64,000 nt of DNA from Thermoplasmata archaeon (GTDB taxonomy: Archaea; Thermoplasmatota; Thermoplasmata; Lutacidiplasmatales; UBA184). Under the pieces are notes generated by a model. It was not told the DNA's origin and ran no database searches. It worked only from the letters and a program-made list of their open reading frames with translations. Location of the stretch: the NCBI GenBank assembly GCA_035945215.1, contig DASZAJ010000007.1:136761-200760 (forward strand), read 5' to 3'. Both the position numbers and the translations under genes were made by a program. How positions within the stretch are numbered: position 1 is the stretch's first letter; each line of letters starts with the position of its first letter. Below are positions 9,884 through 14,778 of the stretch, one piece after another.

Positions 9884-10407
9884 GCCTCGGTCCGCGCCAC
9901 AAGGTCGCCCCCCGCCGGCGGCGGGAAGGCCGCACGGACTACCGGACCCGCCTGAAGCTGCTGAAGTCCGGCCGCCCCCGGGCCGTCGTCCGGTTCTCGG
10001 AGCGCCGGGTGATCGTGGCCTTGACCGCCTATGATCCGAAGGGGGACCGGGTCATCGCGAGCGCGGAGAGCCGCGAGCTCACGCACATCGGTTTCCCCGC
10101 GGCGAGCCTGGCCTCGACGCCGGCGTCGTACCTCACGGGCTACCTGGCGGGACTGCGCGCCAAGTCGGCCGGCGCTCAGGAAGCCGTCCTCGACGTCGGG
10201 ATCCGACGCCCCTCGCAGGGCGGCCGGTTGCTCGGCGCCCTGCGCGGCTTGCTCGATGCCGGCGTCACGATCCCCCACGGGGAGGGCGCCTTCCCGTCCC
10301 CCGAGCGGCTGAACGGAAAGCATCTCAAAACGCCGCTCGATCGACCGCTCGAACTCTTCAAGCAGGCCCTCCCCGCCTACGTGGCCCGTCCGACGGGGGC
10401 GGCATGA
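9880..10407 (+). CDS. rpl18: 50S ribosomal protein L18 (uL18)
   Basis: An in-frame ATG overlaps the L19e stop. RRREGRTDYRTRLKLLKSGRPRAVVRFSERRVIVALTAYDPKGDRVIASAES is the L18/L5e family. Confidence 0.9.
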   Translation: MSLGPRHKVAPRRRREGRTDYRTRLKLLKSGRPRAVVRFSERRVIVALTAYDPKGDRVIASAESRELTHIGFPAASLASTPASYLTGYLAGLRAKSAGAQEAVLDVGIRRPSQGGRLLGALRGLLDAGVTIPHGEGAFPSPERLNGKHLKTPLDRPLELFKQALPAYVARPTGAA

Positions 10408-11294
10408 GCGCGGCGTCGGTCCCCCCGATGCCCGGTCCGGGGGGTCCCCGGATGGGCGGACCCGCCCCGGCGCCGCCGTGGGTGCCGAAGACGGAGCTCG
10501 GTCGGAAGGTCCACGCGGGCGAGATCGCCACCATGGCCGACGCGCTGCGCAGCGGCCTGCCGATGCGAGAGCCGGAGATCGTCGACAAGCTCATCCCGAT
10601 GCTGCACGACGAGGTGCTCGACGTCAACATGGTCCAGCGGATGACCGACTCGGGACGTCGGTTCAAGTTCGCCGTCACGGTCGTCGTCGGCAACGGCGAT
10701 GGCTACGTCGGCCTCGGCCGGGCGAAGGGCCGCGAGGTCGGTCCGACGATCCGCCGCGCGATCGACCGGGCGAAGCTCACGATCGTGGAGGTCTACCGGG
10801 GTTGCGGCAGCTGGGAGTGCGGATGCGGACGGCCGCATACCGTGCCGTTCCAGGCTCGGGGGCGATCGGGATCGGTCGTCGTGACGTTCAAGCCGGCCCC
10901 GCAGGGCGTCGGGCTCGCGGTCGGGGACGTGACCAAGCCGATCCTGCGATTCGCGGGCTTCACCGATGCCTGGGGGTATACGGATGGACACACCAAGACC
11001 ACCGTGAATTACGCCCAGGCCGCCTTCCGGGCGCTCAACGCCCTCTCCGAGCTCAAGCTCTCCCCGGAAGATCGCGAACGCCTGAAGATCATCCGGGGGG
11101 CCGTGGGCCGCTCGATCCTGCCGCCGAAGGAGGAGGGTCCGCCGGGCGGACCTCGCGGTGGCCGACGGGGGCCCGGCGGGCGCGGCGGTCCGCGACGCGG
11201 CGGCCCGGGGCGGGGTGGATCGACCCGGCCGGGAGGGCCGGGCGGGGCTCGGGGGCCCCCGAGGCCGGCCTCGCCGGGAGGGCCGAGGCGCTAG
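10404..11294 (+). CDS. rps5: 30S ribosomal protein S5 (uS5), with a Gly/Pro-rich N-terminal extension and a C-terminal RGG/GPGG repeat tail
   Basis: The core IVDKLIPMLHDEVLDVNMVQRMTDSGRRFKFAVTVVVGNGDGYVGLGRAKGREVGPTIRRAIDRAKL is S5. The tail is GPPGGPRGGRRGPGGRGGPRRGGPGRGGSTRPGGPGGARGPPRPASPGGPRR. Confidence 0.9.
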   Translation: MSAASVPPMPGPGGPRMGGPAPAPPWVPKTELGRKVHAGEIATMADALRSGLPMREPEIVDKLIPMLHDEVLDVNMVQRMTDSGRRFKFAVTVVVGNGDGYVGLGRAKGREVGPTIRRAIDRAKLTIVEVYRGCGSWECGCGRPHTVPFQARGRSGSVVVTFKPAPQGVGLAVGDVTKPILRFAGFTDAWGYTDGHTKTTVNYAQAAFRALNALSELKLSPEDRERLKIIRGAVGRSILPPKEEGPPGGPRGGRRGPGGRGGPRRGGPGRGGSTRPGGPGGARGPPRPASPGGPRR

Positions 11295-11296
11295 CT

Positions 11297-11752
11297 ATGG
11301 CGTGGATGATCATCCGGGTCCGCGGCACGATCCACGCGCGCCGCGACATCGTCGAAACGCTGGCGCGACTGCACCTGGTCCGGCCGAACCACGCGACGGT
11401 CGTCCCGGAGGCACCGTCGTTCAAGGGCATGATCACCAAGGTCCAGGGGTACGTGACCTGGGGGGAGGCGGACGCCGAGACGGTGGGTCTGCTCGTCAGG
11501 GAGCGGGGTCGTCCTCCGGCCGGCTCGTCGATCGCCCCGCCCGGACCCCCGGCACCCGCCCCGGCCGACGCAGCCCCGGTCGTCGAAACCGTGCTCGCCC
11601 ACGGCCTCGCTTCTGCGCCGGGACTCCGGCCGCTGTTCCGCCTGCGGGCCCCGAAGGGTGGCTGGCGGTCGACCAAGAAGCCGTTCGCCTCGGGGGGCGC
11701 GCTCGGCTACCGGGGCCGCGCGATCAACGATCTCGCCCGGAAGATGCTCTAG
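11297..11752 (+). CDS. rpl30: 50S ribosomal protein L30 (uL30), with a Pro/Ala-rich internal insertion
   Basis: MAWMIIRVRGTIHARRDIVETLARLHLVRPNHATVVPEAPSFKGMITKVQGYVTWGE is the L30/L7e fold. The insertion is PPAGSSIAPPGPPAPAPADAAP. Confidence 0.88.
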   Translation: MAWMIIRVRGTIHARRDIVETLARLHLVRPNHATVVPEAPSFKGMITKVQGYVTWGEADAETVGLLVRERGRPPAGSSIAPPGPPAPAPADAAPVVETVLAHGLASAPGLRPLFRLRAPKGGWRSTKKPFASGGALGYRGRAINDLARKML

Positions 11753-11766
11753 GGGGTAGCGAGTCG

Positions 11767-12195
11767 ATGCCGAGCCGTACTCGCAAGTTCCGCGGCCTTC
11801 GCACGCACGGCCGGGGGATCAAGGCCGGACGGGGCGCCGGCAAGCAGGGGGGCCGGGGGAACGCCGGCCTTCACAAGTACAAGTTCAAGTCGATGCTCAT
11901 CTACGCGCCGGACCACTTCGGCCGGCACGGCTTCAAGCGCCCCCCCGAAATCGTCGAGAACCCGATCTCGATCAACGTCGGTGAGCTCGAATCGATCGTG
12001 CCGGTCCTGCGGGCCGCGAAGGCGTTCGCCGAGAAGGACGGGACGGCCGAGGCCGACCTTCGGATGGTGGGGATCGACCGACTGTTGGGCGGCGGGGCCA
12101 CCGAACGGCCCTGGAAGGTGTACGTGGCGCACGCGTCCAAGCACGCCCGCGAGAAGGTCACCGTCCTCGAGCACTCCCCCGTCGGCCCGCCGTAG
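11767..12195 (+). CDS. rpl15: 50S ribosomal protein L15 (uL15)
   Basis: MPSRTRKFRGLRTHGRGIKAGRGAGKQGGRGNAGLHKYKFKSM is the L15 N-terminus. Confidence 0.92.
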   Translation: MPSRTRKFRGLRTHGRGIKAGRGAGKQGGRGNAGLHKYKFKSMLIYAPDHFGRHGFKRPPEIVENPISINVGELESIVPVLRAAKAFAEKDGTAEADLRMVGIDRLLGGGATERPWKVYVAHASKHAREKVTVLEHSPVGPP

Positions 12196-12231
12196 AGTAT
12201 ATTAGTCCCCACCGGGGTCGAATCGCGAGCG

Positions 12232-13995
12232 ATGGCCGAGGAGGAGATCCCCCGCAACTACAGCTGGGCCATCCCCCTGCTGATCATTGGGGCCACGATC
12301 CTGGGGCTCGACTGGGTCTGGGGCCACCCCACGGCGATCGGCTTCGGGATCACGGCGGCCGTGGTCACGGCGATCCTCGGCGTCTTCTTCCTGGGGCTCA
12401 GCTACGACGGGTCGAAATCGAAGCTCTACGGCCTCAAGCCGCTCACCGGGCGGATGCCCGCGGTGGCCCAGCCGAAGGGCCACGTCCAGTTCCGGACCAA
12501 GATGTTCTGGACCGTCGGGGTCCTGTTGATGTACTTCCTGCTCACGAACATCTACCTCTACGGGGTCGACCAGGCGAACGTCATCGACCTGTTCCAGAGC
12601 TACCGGGCCATCCTGGCGGGGGCTCAGGGGACGCTGATGCACTTGGGCATCGGGCCGATCGTCACCGGCTCGATCATCATGCAGCTGTTCACCGGGGCGA
12701 AGATCATCAACCTCGACCTCACGGACGACGAGGACAAGGGGATGTACCAGGGGACCCAGAAGGTCATGGTCGTCGCGATGATCTTCGTCGAGGCGATCCC
12801 CCAGGTCTACGGATACCTGTCGCCCTCGGCGGCCCTCGTCTCGGGCCTGGGCGCCTCCTCCCCGGGGAACGGGCTTCTGCTCGCCGACGCGATCATCATC
12901 GCCCAACTCGTCTTCGGGAGCTACCTCGTCTTCCTCATGGACGAGGTCGTCTCGAAGTGGGGGATCGGCAGCGGGATCTCCTTGTTCATCGCCGCCGGCG
13001 TCTCCCAGCAGATCGTCCAAGGCACGCTCAACTGGATCCCGAGCCAGCCAGGTCCGGTGAGCGCGGCGAACCCGCCCGCCGGCACCATCCCGAAGGCGTT
13101 CTGGTTCTTCACCCATTATAACGCCCAGCAGATGGCCGGCGGCGGCTGGGAACAGGTCCTGCTCCACTCCCCGAATCCGGTCGTCGCGCTTGCCGGGACG
13201 GCCCTCATCTTCTTCCTCGTCGCCTGGACCGAGTCGACGCGCATCGAGCTTCCGCTCTCCCACGCGGAGGCCCGGGGCGCCCGCGGCCGCTACCCCTTGC
13301 GGCTGATCTACGCGTCGAACATCCCGGTCATTCTCATGTCGGCGCTCCTCGCCAACGTCTCGATGTTCTCGATCCTCTTGTGGAACAACCCGGCGCTCTC
13401 GCATTTCCCCCTGTTCGGCCATCAGTGGTGGGTCGGCTCCTACGCGCCCACGGCGGCGTACGCGACCGCCCACGGCGTCAGCCAGACGACGCCGCTCACC
13501 GGCGGGGCGTACTATCTGTCCACGGTCAACGGTCTCGAGTCCTGGCTTCTGCCCCTGCTGAACGCCCAGACCTACGGCGGCTTCCTCGTCGGTCACTCCT
13601 GGTGGGAGGACCTCGCGCACGTGCTGATCTACTTCTCCGTGATGGTCGTCGGCTCGATCATGTTCGCCCGGTTCTGGATCCAGACGACGAACATGGGGCC
13701 CGAGGCGGTCGCCCGCCAGATCGAGGCGAGCGGGATGCAGATCCCCGGGTTCCGGCGCGAGCCGCGGGTCCTGCGCCGCGTCCTGGAGCGCTACATCCCG
13801 GTCATCACCATCATCTCCGGCGCCGCGGTCGGCGCCCTGGCGGCGGGGGCCGACCTGATCGGCACGGTCGGCAACGCGAGCGGGACCGGGGTGCTGCTCA
13901 CCGTCGGGATCATCATCAACCTGTACGAGGCGATGGGCCGCGAGCAGCTGATGGAGATGAACCCGCTATTGCGCCGCTTCCTCGGCGGCGAGTAG
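12232..13995 (+). CDS. secY: Preprotein translocase subunit SecY, with a ~60-aa N-terminal extension predicted to form two TM helices
   Basis: The canonical SecY N-terminus (SKSKLYGLKPLTGRMPAVAQPKGHVQFRTKMFWTVGVLLMYFLLTNIYLYGV) begins about 60 codons into the ORF. The upstream in-frame segment is hydrophobic (IPLLIIGATILGLDWVWGHPTAIGFGITAAVVTAILGVFFLGL). The ATG is 36 nt after the L15 stop. Confidence 0.9.
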   Translation: MAEEEIPRNYSWAIPLLIIGATILGLDWVWGHPTAIGFGITAAVVTAILGVFFLGLSYDGSKSKLYGLKPLTGRMPAVAQPKGHVQFRTKMFWTVGVLLMYFLLTNIYLYGVDQANVIDLFQSYRAILAGAQGTLMHLGIGPIVTGSIIMQLFTGAKIINLDLTDDEDKGMYQGTQKVMVVAMIFVEAIPQVYGYLSPSAALVSGLGASSPGNGLLLADAIIIAQLVFGSYLVFLMDEVVSKWGIGSGISLFIAAGVSQQIVQGTLNWIPSQPGPVSAANPPAGTIPKAFWFFTHYNAQQMAGGGWEQVLLHSPNPVVALAGTALIFFLVAWTESTRIELPLSHAEARGARGRYPLRLIYASNIPVILMSALLANVSMFSILLWNNPALSHFPLFGHQWWVGSYAPTAAYATAHGVSQTTPLTGGAYYLSTVNGLESWLLPLLNAQTYGGFLVGHSWWEDLAHVLIYFSVMVVGSIMFARFWIQTTNMGPEAVARQIEASGMQIPGFRREPRVLRRVLERYIPVITIISGAAVGALAAGADLIGTVGNASGTGVLLTVGIIINLYEAMGREQLMEMNPLLRRFLGGE

Positions 13996-13998
13996 GCG

Positions 13999-14778
13999 AT
14001 GGCCGAGTCGGCCCCCGCGGCGGAGGCGCCGCTCCCGTCGGCGACCCCGCCCTCCGAGGCCGGCGAAGCGGCGCCGCCGCCGTCGCCGCGGCCACCGCCC
14101 CCGCAGTTCAAGCTCTCGACGTTCGTCCTCACCTTCCTGTTCGTGATCGGGATCCTGATGATCTTCGACACCTCGACGCGCAACGGGGTCGCGACGGTCC
14201 TCGGCCTGGGACTGGCGCCCCTCATCGGCTTCGGCCACCAGTACGTCCTGCTGACGATGTTCTGCGCCGCGCTGATCGAGATGGCCCTCACCGCGCTCGC
14301 GTACAACTGGGCGACCGACTGGGTGAAGACCTCCCGGATCCAGAGCTGGTCGTCGGCGTTCCGCAAGGTCCAGATGGAGGCGCTGCGCTCGGGCAAGAAG
14401 GACCGAGTCGAGGCGCTCAAGCCCCATCAGGCCGAGATCACGCGGCTGTCGAGCGAGCTGTCGATCAGCCAGCTCAAGGGGATGGCCGTGACGTGGTTCC
14501 TGGTGATCGCGATCTACACCTGGGTCGGACTGTTCATCGCGGCGAGCGCCCTCCCGCAGAAGACCGTCGACCTGGGGGGGAGCCTGGTCAACATCGCGAC
14601 GAACGTCCACGTCGGCCCGTTCCCGATCCCGTTGTGGATCCTGCTGTTCTCATTGTACACCTTCCCGCTCTCCTACGTGCTGCGCCGGGCGCTCAAGCAC
14701 TACTCCCTGCGGCGCTACGAGCTCGCCCACCTCGCCGATCCGCCGTCGTCCCCCCCGCCGTCGAGCCCGACCGCGTGA
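13999..14778 (+). CDS. DUF106-family membrane protein (archaeal YidC/Oxa1/EMC3-like insertase homolog)
   Basis: A three-TM protein with a coiled-coil (FVLTFLFVIGILMIFD...MEALRSGKKDRVEALKPHQAEITRL...). It sits at the conserved position downstream of SecY (in other archaea after adk). It has a Pro/Ser/Ala-rich N-terminus. Confidence 0.75.
   Translation: MAESAPAAEAPLPSATPPSEAGEAAPPPSPRPPPPQFKLSTFVLTFLFVIGILMIFDTSTRNGVATVLGLGLAPLIGFGHQYVLLTMFCAALIEMALTALAYNWATDWVKTSRIQSWSSAFRKVQMEALRSGKKDRVEALKPHQAEITRLSSELSISQLKGMAVTWFLVIAIYTWVGLFIAASALPQKTVDLGGSLVNIATNVHVGPFPIPLWILLFSLYTFPLSYVLRRALKHYSLRRYELAHLADPPSSPPPSSPTA

What the first reader, a model, noticed from the sequence alone, without database searches (positions are those of the whole stretch)
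12232..12411. SecY with an in-frame ~60-residue N-terminal extension predicted to add two transmembrane helices
The canonical archaeal SecY N-terminus (KSKLYGLKPL...HVQFRTKMFWTV) begins about 60 codons downstream of the ORF ATG. The ATG is 36 nt after the L15 stop. The intervening in-frame sequence is strongly hydrophobic (IPLLIIGATILGLDWVWGHPTAIGFGITAAVVTAILGVFFLGL). This is not the Arg/Pro/Gly-rich composition expected for an out-of-frame or untranslated high-GC stretch. No ATG occurs near the canonical start, and the nearest alternative is a GTG at about 12361. This suggests SecY here carries two extra N-terminal TM helices, or a small membrane protein has fused to SecY.
Basis: partly seen in the sequence, partly recalled or inferred. 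Interest (0 to 1): 0.55.

Follow-up and report, generated by a model that had tools for sequence, protein, structure and literature searches.

The report
SecY with two extra N-terminal helices
The protein-export channel SecY of this soil archaeon really does start 60 residues early with a conserved pair of extra membrane helices, and the same add-on occurs in many Thermoplasmata lineages, so these archaea appear to have a 12-helix version of a channel described as having 10.

Summary

**Start site.** The secY ORF (12232-13995, +, 587 aa) starts at the ATG 36 nt after the uL15 stop.

**Structure.** Residues 1-60 form an acidic tail followed by two hydrophobic helices (about 10-31 and 35-56). 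They join the canonical SecY N-terminus at ..LGLSYDG|SKSKLYGLKP.

**Evidence that it is coding.**
- GC3 is 0.98.
- All 120 closest database proteins and about 57 genome loci carry it, with only one gapped column.
- It has invariant motif residues: E5, R8, P33, T34 and G55-L-S-Y58-x-G60.
- dN/dS is about 0.5, against 0.19 for the core.
- A TATA-like box sits at a fixed 28 nt before the ATG.
- The GTG at 12361 is start-like in only 2 of 52 relatives.

**Distribution.** The hairpin is not restricted to this order (Lutacidiplasmatales, also called UBA184). At least 12 divergent subtypes occur across uncultured Thermoplasmata, including genomes of 44% GC, and they are interleaved with lineages that lack it.

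**Origin.** No free-standing homologue was found among 1.84 billion representative proteins. It does not match SecG, Sec61-beta or SecE.

**Coupling to the core.** Gly67 is 100% conserved when the hairpin is present and is K, Y or R when it is absent.

**Sec-beta.** One hairpin-bearing genome still encodes Sec61-beta, so the hairpin does not replace it there.

**Function.** The role is inferred only. It is most likely a built-in peripheral membrane module of the translocon.

The parts
11743..12195 (+). Ribosomal protein uL15 gene, immediately upstream. Its TAG stop (12193-12195) is in the same frame as secY and bounds the secY ORF.
   Evidence: Pfam PF00828 hit; ORF list and sequence.
12196..12205 (+). 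TATA-like promoter element AGTATATTAG (hexamer TATATT at 12198-12203). Its 3' end is 28 nt before the ATG. The inferred consequence is that secY has its own promoter giving a leaderless or near-leaderless mRNA.
   Evidence: 48 of 56 hairpin-bearing loci have TATAWW upstream. The spacing is 28 nt in 31 loci and 26-32 nt in 46. The other 8 have ATATAA/TATTTA/TATATG variants at about the same place. Background is 0.007 per 80 nt, with only 12 TATAWW in the whole window on both strands. Hairpin-less relatives have SD-like GGAGG/GGAAGG instead.
12232..12234 (+). ATG start codon of the extended SecY.
   Evidence: First start codon after the in-frame stop. It is the conserved Met of the MAEEEIPR motif in all 120 closest proteins. 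It sits at a fixed distance from the TATA element.
12232..12258 (+). Acidic N-terminal tail MAEEEIPRN (residues 1-9), with conserved E5, P7, R8 and N/D9. Predicted to be cytoplasmic.
   Evidence: E5 and R8 are invariant and P7 is at least 90% conserved. The 1-12 segment (tail plus first helix residues) has mean net charge -1.8. Residue 8 forms an isolated beta-bridge with residue 58 in both AlphaFold2 models.
12259..12324 (+). Extra helix a (residues 10-31), running from inside to outside, ending in the DWxW motif (W28, W30).
   Evidence: AlphaFold2 helix 10-31 with pLDDT about 90. Mean KD hydropathy 2.2 across 52 relatives with no length change. W12 and W30 are at least 90% conserved.
12325..12333 (+). 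Short outer turn (residues 32-34, H-P-T), with P33 and T34 invariant within the order.
   Evidence: invariant columns; non-helical at residues 32-34.
12334..12399 (+). Extra helix b (residues 35-56), running from outside to inside. It is the most hydrophobic segment of the protein.
   Evidence: AlphaFold2 helix 35-56 with pLDDT 84-88. KD mean 2.5 and net charge 0 in all relatives. Peak KD 2.36.
12391..12411 (+). Junction motif L-G-L-S-Y-D-G (residues 54-60). This is the end of the extension.
   Evidence: G55, S57, Y58 and G60 are invariant across A2; L56 is invariant among the Lutacidiplasmatales hairpins only. The S/T-Y/F-x-G core recurs in nearly all divergent subtypes.
12412..12483 (+). Canonical SecY N-terminal segment SKSKLYGLKPLTGRMPAVAQPKGH (residues 61-84). 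It includes Gly67 (12430-12432), which co-varies with the hairpin.
   Evidence: It aligns to residues 3-10 onward of solved SecY/Sec61-alpha. G67 is 100% Gly in hairpin-bearing SecY and K/Y/R in hairpin-less SecY, with MI 0.89 bits, the top column of the alignment.
12484..13995 (+). SecY core, including the stop codon: TM1, plug and TM2-TM10.
   Evidence: Pfam Plug_translocon and SecY. Foldseek against PDB gives TM-score 0.82-0.86 to Sec61-alpha/SecY chains.
13999..14778 (+). Downstream neighbour: an EMC3/TMCO1-like (DUF106, YidC/Oxa1-type) membrane protein gene, starting 3 nt after the secY stop. This is context, not shown to be linked to the hairpin.
   Evidence: Pfam PF01956; ORF list.

Best explanation
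**Shown.** The ATG at 12232 is the genuine start of secY. Residues 1-60 are translated and form a helical hairpin of two membrane-spanning helices (about 10-31 and 35-56). A short acidic tail precedes them and the conserved LGLSYDG junction follows.

**Inferred topology.** The canonical SecY N-terminus is cytoplasmic and the linker after helix b is positively charged. The hairpin must therefore be N-in/C-in, which leaves the topology of the ten core helices unchanged and gives a 12-TM SecY.

**Shown.** The module is old and widespread in the class Thermoplasmata, with at least 12 sequence subtypes. It has no detectable homologue outside SecY. It is structurally coupled to the canonical N-terminal helix, because Gly67 is obligatory whenever the hairpin is present.

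**Inferred.** In this order (Lutacidiplasmatales, also called UBA184) secY has its own TATA-box promoter 28 nt upstream. The mRNA would then begin within a few nucleotides of this ATG.

**Inferred mechanism, about 35% confidence on its own.** The hairpin is a permanently attached peripheral membrane module of the translocon. It is tethered by about 7 residues to the N-terminal amphipathic helix and TM1. That should place it against the lipid-facing surface of the N-terminal half of SecY, the side where the small accessory subunits (Sec-beta, bacterial SecG) bind in solved complexes. There it would stabilise or anchor that half of the channel, or provide a docking surface for a partner. It would not alter the pore, plug or lateral gate, whose residues are conserved as in ordinary SecY.
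For: **Coding and start site**
- GC3 is 0.98 in the extension against 0.96 in the rest of the gene.
- All 120 best database hits (81-94% identity, 586-593 aa, apart from one 552-aa partial) carry it, with a conserved motif pattern.
- Across 52 CDS from genome loci, dN/dS is 0.50 in the extension against 0.19 in the core. Only one column in the extension is gapped, and hydrophobicity is retained.
- Codon 44 is start-like in only 2 of 52 relatives, and no start-like codon reaches 50% conservation between codons 2 and 74.
- The TATAWW element has a fixed 28-nt spacing.

**Not a high-GC artefact**
- A homologous hairpin is present in a 44% GC genome (L067) and in many further lineages.

**Structure**
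- AlphaFold2 with a diverse alignment gives pTM 0.73. Helices 10-31 and 35-56 have pLDDT 84-91. A bridge between residues 8 and 58 links the two conserved motifs (the same secondary structure appears).
- The core has the SecY fold.

**Integration with the core**
- The G67 switch has MI 0.89 bits across about 8 independent gain or loss events.

**Not a known subunit**
- No SecG, Sec61-beta or SecE signal appears even at E<=10 for 10 subtypes.
- No free-standing homologue was found.
- Sec61-beta coexists with the hairpin in L067.
Against: - There is no experimental evidence here for the N-terminus: no proteomics, ribosome profiling or transcription start mapping.
- The leaderless-mRNA inference rests only on the usual archaeal distance between the TATA box and the transcription start.
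- The position of the hairpin relative to the core could not be read, because model coordinates are not returned. The proposed docking site is based on tether geometry, not data.
- The trait-residue analysis found no strong partner site in the core TMs. The best was V227 in TM4, at MI 0.36.
- The TM segments evolve fast (dN/dS about 0.7). This fits a lipid-exposed or loosely packed element and argues against a tightly integrated functional surface.
- Repeated loss in many lineages shows the module is dispensable.
Confidence: 0.85

Rival explanations
1. The hairpin is mainly a biogenesis device. It would be an uncleaved N-terminal signal-anchor pair that makes SecY itself a better substrate for SRP targeting and membrane insertion, or fixes its topology. 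On this view it contributes nothing to the working channel.
For: Helix b is the most hydrophobic segment of the whole protein, above the weakly hydrophobic TM1. The TM residues are only loosely constrained, with dN/dS about 0.7 while hydrophobicity is preserved. The module has been lost repeatedly without loss of SecY.
Against: Specific non-hydrophobic motifs are invariant (E5, R8, P33-T34, S57-Y58-x-G60), and G67 co-varies with the hairpin. That is more than a generic anchor needs. SecY in all other archaea inserts without it.
Confidence: 0.2
2. This is a gene fusion. A formerly independent small two-TM membrane protein, for example an accessory translocon subunit encoded between uL15 and secY, became fused in frame to SecY.
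For: The module is a self-contained hairpin with its own conserved ends. These are predicted to clasp each other through the bridge between residues 8 and 58. Small ORFs are often not called in metagenomes, so a free-standing form could have been missed.
Against: The profile of the extension alone, searched against 1.84 billion representatives, found only SecY N-terminal fragments. So did the search of the 5.8-billion cluster database. In 18 hairpin-less relatives there is no ORF between uL15 and secY, and secY starts within a few nucleotides of uL15. There is no Pfam family match. The extension has no similarity to other ORFs of the window or to other SecY helices.
Confidence: 0.08
3. The start is mis-called or the ORF runs on. 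The real SecY would start internally, at GTG 12361 or ATG 12454, and the upstream open frame would be an accident of a 70% GC genome.
For: High-GC genomes have long open frames in all phases. ATG at codon 75 is conserved in 46 of 52 members of this order.
Against: GC3 is 0.98 in frame. The amino-acid motifs are conserved and indels nearly absent (one gapped column) across more than 170 sequences. A homologous hairpin exists in 44% GC genomes. GTG44 is not conserved. Starting at codon 75 would delete the SKLYGLKP helix, which is conserved in all Thermoplasmata SecY sequences examined, and M75 is Leu or Phe in other subtypes. The TATA box sits at a fixed distance from ATG 12232.
Confidence: 0.02
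4. The hairpin is a regulatory or gating element. It would dock in or in front of the lateral gate (TM2b/TM7), or over the cytoplasmic funnel. There it would act as an in-cis signal-sequence mimic or cap that keeps the idle channel primed or sealed. Known comparisons are the cytoplasmic loop of SecG and RAMP4 at the Sec61 gate.
For: The linker from residue 57 to TM1 is about 30 residues, long enough to reach the front of the N-terminal half. Small TM partners are known to occupy the gate in solved Sec61 complexes; entry 8rjb, Sec61-RAMP4, is among the fold matches.
Against: No gate residue co-varies with presence of the hairpin. The canonical N-terminal helix is retained directly after the hairpin, which restricts its reach. 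There is no direct structural read-out.
Confidence: 0.1

Closest known systems
Canonical archaeal SecY / eukaryotic Sec61-alpha (e.g. M. jannaschii SecY in PDB 1RHZ, P. furiosus 3MP7)
   Same: Residues 61-587 are an ordinary SecY. They hit the Pfam Plug and SecY domains and align to solved chains at E down to 1e-86. The fold TM-score is 0.82-0.86. The gene is in the usual place after uL15, followed by the DUF106 gene.
   Different: All solved and reviewed SecY/Sec61-alpha proteins have 10 TM helices and start about 20 residues before TM1 (review PMC6098224 read). This one has about 60 extra residues forming two additional TM helices. It also has a Thermoplasmata-typical longer core of about 525 aa.
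Bacterial SecG (PF03840), the two-TM peripheral subunit of SecYEG
   Same: It is a small two-helix hairpin associated with the N-terminal half of SecY, and it is dispensable in evolution. This makes it the nearest functional analogy.
   Different: There is no sequence similarity. SecG is a separate polypeptide. From my own recollection of the structures, not tested here, its connecting loop faces the cytoplasm, so both termini are outside. Here the connecting turn must face outward and both ends face the cytoplasm.
Archaeal Sec-beta / Sec61-beta (PF03911)
   Same: It is a small accessory TM element that, in solved complexes, binds beside TM1/TM4 of SecY. That is where a hairpin tethered to TM1 would be expected to sit.
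   Different: Sec-beta is a single-TM tail-anchored protein with the GLIRYFD motif and shows no similarity to the hairpin. A bona fide Sec61-beta gene coexists with a hairpin-bearing secY in L067. The hairpin is therefore not a fused or replacement Sec-beta there.
The two non-essential N-terminal TM helices of E. coli-type SecE
   Same: It is a precedent for a translocon subunit acquiring two extra, evolutionarily dispensable N-terminal TM helices in some lineages only. This comparison comes from my own knowledge of the family and was not tested here.
   Different: It concerns a different subunit and a different domain of life, and there is no sequence relationship.

Membership tests
SecY/Sec61-alpha (PF00344 plus PF10559) | Significant match to the SecY and plug-domain profiles | tested here: met
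   PF00344 at 228 bits (cut-off 32.2), residues 134-565. PF10559 at 46.5 bits (cut-off 22.1), residues 101-133.
SecY/Sec61-alpha (PF00344 plus PF10559) | Ten-helix clam-shell fold superposable on solved channels | tested here: met
   The AlphaFold2 model (pTM 0.73) matches 7tm3_1, 1rhz_A, 8dny_A and others with target-normalised TM-scores of 0.82-0.86.
SecY/Sec61-alpha (PF00344 plus PF10559) | Gene located at the end of the ribosomal-protein cluster after uL30/uL15 | tested here: met
   uL15 ends 36 nt upstream, and the uS5 and uL30 ORFs lie before it. The same order is seen in L067 and L081.
SecY/Sec61-alpha (PF00344 plus PF10559) | Protein begins with a short cytoplasmic segment directly before TM1, giving 10 TM in total | tested here: not met
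   About 60 additional residues with two predicted TM helices precede the canonical N-terminus. It is a member of the family with a variant architecture.
Bacterial SecG (PF03840) | Sequence similarity of the hairpin to the SecG profile | tested here: not met
   No PF03840 hit at E<=10 for 10 divergent hairpin subtypes, and none at E<=0.01 for residues 1-60.
Sec61-beta / archaeal Sec-beta (PF03911) | Sequence similarity to the profile and a single C-terminal TM anchor | tested here: not met
   No PF03911 hit. The hairpin has two hydrophobic segments, not one. A real PF03911 gene exists separately in L067.
Independent small membrane-protein family (fusion partner) | Existence of free-standing homologues of residues 1-60 | tested here: not met
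   Only SecY N-terminal fragments were recovered from 1.84 billion representatives and from the 5.8-billion cluster database.
Leaderless archaeal transcription unit | TATA box about 25-30 nt upstream of the start codon, no Shine-Dalgarno sequence, and a transcription start at or near the AUG | tested here: inconclusive
   The conserved TATAWW lies 28 nt before the ATG and no SD-like sequence is present. The transcription start itself cannot be determined with these tools.

The most novel reading that the evidence does not exclude
Much of the class Thermoplasmata may use a 12-helix SecY. In this reading the built-in N-terminal hairpin is a working fourth element of the translocon. [quoted passage not shown] It has been gained or lost at least eight times, each time together with a Gly to Lys/Tyr/Arg switch at residue 67. 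That would make it a natural experiment on how accessory TM helices tune a universal channel.
Probability: 0.2. Interest if true: 0.7.

Novelty: new variant of a known kind. Interest (0 to 1): 0.5.

Why it matters
SecY/Sec61-alpha is one of the most conserved membrane proteins. [quoted passage not shown]

A conserved in-cis pair of extra helices that is widespread across a class would be an unremarked architectural variant of the core translocon. Five full-text literature searches found no description of it.

It gives structural biologists a natural fusion form of an accessory element. It comes with a patchy presence/absence pattern and a tightly coupled marker residue (Gly67) that could guide mutagenesis.

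On the practical side, it shows that the long gene models for SecY in these MAGs are correct and should not be trimmed to the canonical start. It also shows that secY in Lutacidiplasmatales probably has its own promoter inside the ribosomal-protein cluster.

Tried and rejected
1. **AlphaFold2 with close relatives only.** The alignment of 90 sequences at more than 82% identity gave a poor model (pLDDT 55, pTM 0.41). It was repeated with a diverse alignment.
2. **Placing the hairpin.** Model coordinates are not returned and are not in /data. The position of the hairpin against the core could therefore not be read.
3. **AFDB search.** The afdb50 fold library was unavailable. I could not check AlphaFold DB models of cultured Thermoplasmatales.
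4. **Internal duplication or local origin.** The extension profile, searched against all six-frame ORFs of the window and the rest of SecY, gave nothing significant.
5. **Hairpin replacing Sec-beta.**
   - No Sec-beta was found in the 64-kb window, which is uninformative.
   - L067 carries both the hairpin and a PF03911 gene. The replacement idea is therefore rejected for that lineage and remains open for Lutacidiplasmatales.
6. **Docking site from trait-residue mutual information.** Only the junction residues G67 and K64 stand out, and no core TM site does. DCA was not attempted, because the effective number of hairpin-bearing sequences is only about 14.
7. **Single origin tested by tree.** Only NJ trees without support values were possible. 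They show interleaving and at least 8 changes, but cannot separate one gain with many losses from poor resolution or transfer.
8. **Rfam scan of the window.** No hits.
9. **Spurious profile hits.** P0121 and P0131 are repetitive eukaryote-like sequences and were discarded.
10. **Cluster names.** Ten subtype representatives all returned only 'Thermoplasmata archaeon', so there is no finer taxonomy.
Full report
**1. What is in the sequence**

The window has 69.5% GC. The ribosomal protein uL15 gene (Pfam PF00828) ends with TAG at 12193-12195. Thirty-six nucleotides later, in the same frame, an ATG at 12232 opens a 587-codon ORF that runs to 13995.

Pfam places the Sec61/SecY plug domain at residues 101-133 and the SecY domain at 134-565. 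Nothing matches residues 1-60. Every solved SecY or Sec61-alpha chain in the PDB aligns from query residue 68 or later to its own residues 3-10. The first 60 or so residues are therefore a true N-terminal surplus relative to all solved channels.

The only start-like codons inside it or just after it are GTG at 12361 (codon 44) and ATG at 12454 (codon 75).

**2. Is it coding?**

- **Codon composition.** Codon-position GC of residues 1-60 is 0.60/0.47/0.98, indistinguishable from the rest of the gene at 0.60/0.44/0.96. The other two frames translate to Arg/Pro/Gly-rich strings, one of them with a stop.
- **Closest proteins.** The 120 best hits among 5.8 billion protein clusters are all 'Thermoplasmata archaeon' SecY of 586-593 aa, apart from one 552-aa partial, at 81-94% identity. 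Every one carries the extension.
  - The conservation pattern is protein-like: an invariant or near-invariant M-A-[ED]-E-E-x-P-R-[DN]-x-x-W-A-x-P-L.
  - This is followed by a hydrophobic stretch that varies only among hydrophobic residues, then [DW]-W-x-W-x-x-P-T, a second hydrophobic stretch, and L-G-L-S-Y-D-G.
- **Selection.** I compared 52 coding sequences taken from genome loci.
  - The extension has a single gapped column.
  - Nei-Gojobori dN/dS is about 0.50, with the two helices at about 0.7. The core is at 0.19.
  - The extension is therefore constrained, but less so than the channel itself.
  - Mean hydropathy of the two segments stays at 2.2 and 2.5 in all relatives. The segment after the second helix is always positively charged (mean +2.5) and the N-tail is acidic (mean -1.8).
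- **Internal starts.** Codon 44 is start-like in only 2 of 52 relatives. No start-like codon reaches 50% conservation anywhere between codons 2 and 74.

**3. A promoter fixes the start**

In 48 of 56 hairpin-bearing loci a TATAWW hexamer lies upstream of the ATG. The spacing is 28 nt in 31 of them and 26-32 nt in 46. The remaining eight have ATATAA, TATTTA or TATATG variants at about the same place. The consensus is CGtAGACTATATAA, and its TAG is often the uL15 stop.

In this window the element is AGTATATTAG at 12196-12205. TATAWW occurs only 12 times on both strands of the whole 64-kb window, which is 0.007 expected per 80 nt.

Archaeal transcription usually starts about 23-25 nt after the TATA box. 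That figure is established knowledge and was not tested here. It puts the 5' end of the mRNA within a few nucleotides of the ATG. This suggests that secY in this order has its own promoter and a leaderless or nearly leaderless message, which can only be translated from this ATG.

Hairpin-less relatives have no such box. They carry SD-like GGAGG/GGAAGG sequences instead.

**4. Who has it**

The closest named genome is Candidatus Lutacidiplasma silvani (L001, 87% identity), and UBA184 is also in the set (L048). The window's GC content matches the roughly 69% reported for the order Lutacidiplasmatales (PMC9287336). That paper does not mention SecY.

In the genome scan, most loci at 71-88% identity (L001-L050, L052, L054-L057, L060-L062, L074) match from residue 1-3; L051 and L053 are cut by contig ends. 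The more distant Thermoplasmata, including Methanomassiliicoccales-labelled MAGs at 61-67% identity, match only from residue 56-62. Their SecY begins MAEEKKSLLYKLKP, MPLEEKKKSRLY or MVEEGKSKLY directly after uL15.

One exception led further. L067 (CP070751.1, 44% GC) has a 581-aa SecY that begins with a divergent but clearly homologous hairpin:

MADEPRNKAVAIPVIIIWMIIVAFYAMSSQFDPVVIFLTAIITGPLFGLIYLMFSYRGEGSRLIGLKP

A search with that protein showed the module in many more lineages.
- There are at least 12 sequence subtypes of 55-80 residues. Their N-termini include MVGESVERNKAWAVPL.., MAEDRNPAVAVP.., MAERNKIAAIPVAV.., MAENDIPRNPRQALGPC.., MELNPDGTVPRDPTRAGKW.., MAIERDYRKAIW.. and MAQNRNYLLAIPVL...
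- Nearly all keep an N-terminal acidic/R-N-type motif, two hydrophobic segments and a [ST]-[YF]-x-G-[ED]-x-S-K-L-Y-G-L-K-P junction.
- In a 135-sequence alignment, 108 carry the module. Of those, 105 have exactly two hydrophobic segments. The other 27 lack it.

A neighbour-joining tree of the core alone interleaves carriers and non-carriers and needs at least 8 changes by parsimony (rough, with no support values). The distribution is therefore patchy. The most economical reading is an old gain with repeated clean losses, but poor tree resolution or transfer cannot be excluded.

**5. Fusion, insertion or extension?**

I built a profile of residues 1-60 alone and searched it against 1.84 billion representative proteins. 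It returned 11 hits. The real ones are all SecY N-terminal fragments from short contigs or frameshifted assemblies, and two are repetitive junk.

A second profile, built from the divergent subtypes, again found only SecY fragments. No Pfam family, including SecG, Sec61-beta and SecE, matches any of 10 subtypes even at E<=10. The profile also finds nothing else in the window or in the other SecY helices.

Hairpin-less relatives have no ORF between uL15 and secY. Aligning both forms gives MAEE|(about 55 residues)|KSKLYGLKP against MAEE-KKSLLYKLKP. The module therefore looks like an insertion into, or an addition onto, the short ancestral cytoplasmic tail. These two cannot be told apart. A fusion with a known or detectable gene is not supported.

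**6. Structure and coupling to the core**

With a diverse alignment, AlphaFold2 gives a credible SecY, with mean pLDDT 76.7 and pTM 0.73. The Foldseek TM-score is 0.82-0.86 to Sec61-alpha and SecY chains.

The extension forms two helices, 10-31 and 35-56, joined by a three-residue turn. Their pLDDT of 84-91 is among the highest in the model. An isolated beta-bridge between residues 8 and 58 joins the two conserved end motifs (PRN and SYDG) into a cytoplasmic clasp (identical secondary structure).

The canonical N-terminus of SecY is cytoplasmic, and the linker after helix b is the positively charged side. The hairpin must therefore be N-in/C-in, which leaves the topology of the ten core helices unchanged. 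This is an inference.

The tool does not return coordinates, so I could not see where the hairpin packs.

As a substitute I used the patchy distribution as a natural experiment. I asked which core columns track presence of the hairpin, using weighted mutual information. The top column by far is residue 67. It is Gly in 100% of carriers and K, Y or R in non-carriers (0.89 bits). K64 is among the next-ranked columns. No core TM position stands out, the best being V227 in TM4 at 0.36 bits.

The hairpin is therefore structurally coupled to the N-terminal amphipathic helix that follows it. There is no evidence that it reshapes the pore, plug or lateral gate.

**7. Relation to Sec-beta**

By chance, the L067 locus contains a 62-aa ORF about 2.3 kb downstream of secY with the GLIRYFD motif and one C-terminal TM. 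It scores 47.6 bits against Pfam Sec61_beta, where the cut-off is 27. At least one hairpin-bearing lineage therefore keeps Sec-beta, and the hairpin is not simply a replacement for it there.

No Sec-beta lies in the 64-kb window. That says nothing about the rest of this genome.

**8. Most likely mechanism**

Shown: this is a genuine, translated, conserved two-helix N-terminal module that makes a 12-TM SecY.

Inferred: it is a permanently attached peripheral element. It is tethered by about 7 residues to the canonical N-terminal helix and TM1. [quoted passage not shown] That location is established knowledge and was not tested here. The hairpin probably stabilises or anchors that half, or offers a docking surface.

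The main rivals are:
- a pure biogenesis anchor, for which helix b being the most hydrophobic segment and the loosely constrained TM residues argue;
- a gate or cap mimic;
- a fusion with an as yet unseen small protein.

A mis-called start is effectively excluded.

**9. Novelty**

Five full-text literature searches were run on SecY with N-terminal extensions, on Lutacidiplasmatales, on Thermoplasma or Thermoplasmata with SecY, and on extra or additional TM helices. They found no description of such a SecY. The archaeal cell-surface review states the standard 10-TM architecture.

The proteins are in public databases, annotated simply as SecY. I rate this a new variant of a known kind. It is a real and fairly broad architectural variant of a universal channel, of moderate interest, and its function is still unknown.

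Noticed in passing
window 12430-12432 (Gly67) and alignment A4: Residue 67 of the canonical N-terminal helix (SKLYGLKP) is Gly in 100% of hairpin-bearing SecY and Lys/Tyr/Arg in hairpin-less SecY. This holds across about 8 apparent gain or loss events. It is a sharp co-varying marker of the module.
   Followed up: partly
P0200 (protein; not in the window): One Thermoplasmata SecY is 664 aa and has four hydrophobic segments, about 125 residues in all, before its SYSGDKSKLYGLKD junction. It may be a 14-TM variant, or it may have a mis-called start. Only this single sequence was seen.
   Followed up: partly
window 12214-12220 (GGGGTCG); consensus positions -17 to -13 in 32 related loci: A conserved GC-rich GG-x-TC motif, plus a conserved CG at -26/-25, lies between the TATA-like box and the secY ATG. 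Archaeal promoters are usually AT-rich in this region. Its role is unknown. It could be a regulator site, a transcript 5' end or a structure.
   Followed up: no
window 10404-11294 (+): The ribosomal protein uS5 ORF ends in a Gly/Pro/Arg-rich (RGG-like) tail of about 55-60 residues (..PPGGPRGGRRGPGGRGGPRRGGPGRGG..PASPGGPRR). The tail runs up to the uL30 start. I did not check whether it is conserved or is a high-GC read-through of the true stop.
   Followed up: no
window 13999-14778 (+): The EMC3/TMCO1-like (DUF106, YidC/Oxa1-type) gene starts 3 nt after the secY stop. It carries a Pro/Ala-rich N-terminal tail of about 35-40 residues and a Pro/Ser-rich C-terminal tail outside the Pfam domain (domain at residues 84-233).
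   Followed up: no
L067:7926-8111 (+), CP070751.1: A 62-aa Sec61-beta gene (PF03911, 47.6 bits) lies about 2.3 kb downstream of a hairpin-bearing secY. A 584-aa ORF with a hydrophobic N-terminal stretch lies in between.
   Followed up: yes
records behind L067, P0148, P0196 and P0164: Several hairpin-bearing 'Thermoplasmata archaeon' sequences sit on very long records of 5.16, 4.23, 3.58 and 2.50 Mb; the 5.16-Mb one is titled a chromosome. These sizes are large compared with the roughly 2.1 Mb reported for Lutacidiplasmatales.
   Followed up: no
L047, L049, L050 (deep-branching members of the hairpin-bearing order): The hairpin ORF in these loci appears to start with TTG or GTG instead of ATG. 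In at least L049 the TATA-like box is further upstream, at 41 nt. They may use a short leader rather than a leaderless start.
   Followed up: no
window 25553 (+): This is the only other place in the window where a TATAWW hexamer precedes the start of a long high-GC3 ORF at promoter-like spacing. Here it is 24 nt before an ATG opening a 320-aa ORF.
   Followed up: no
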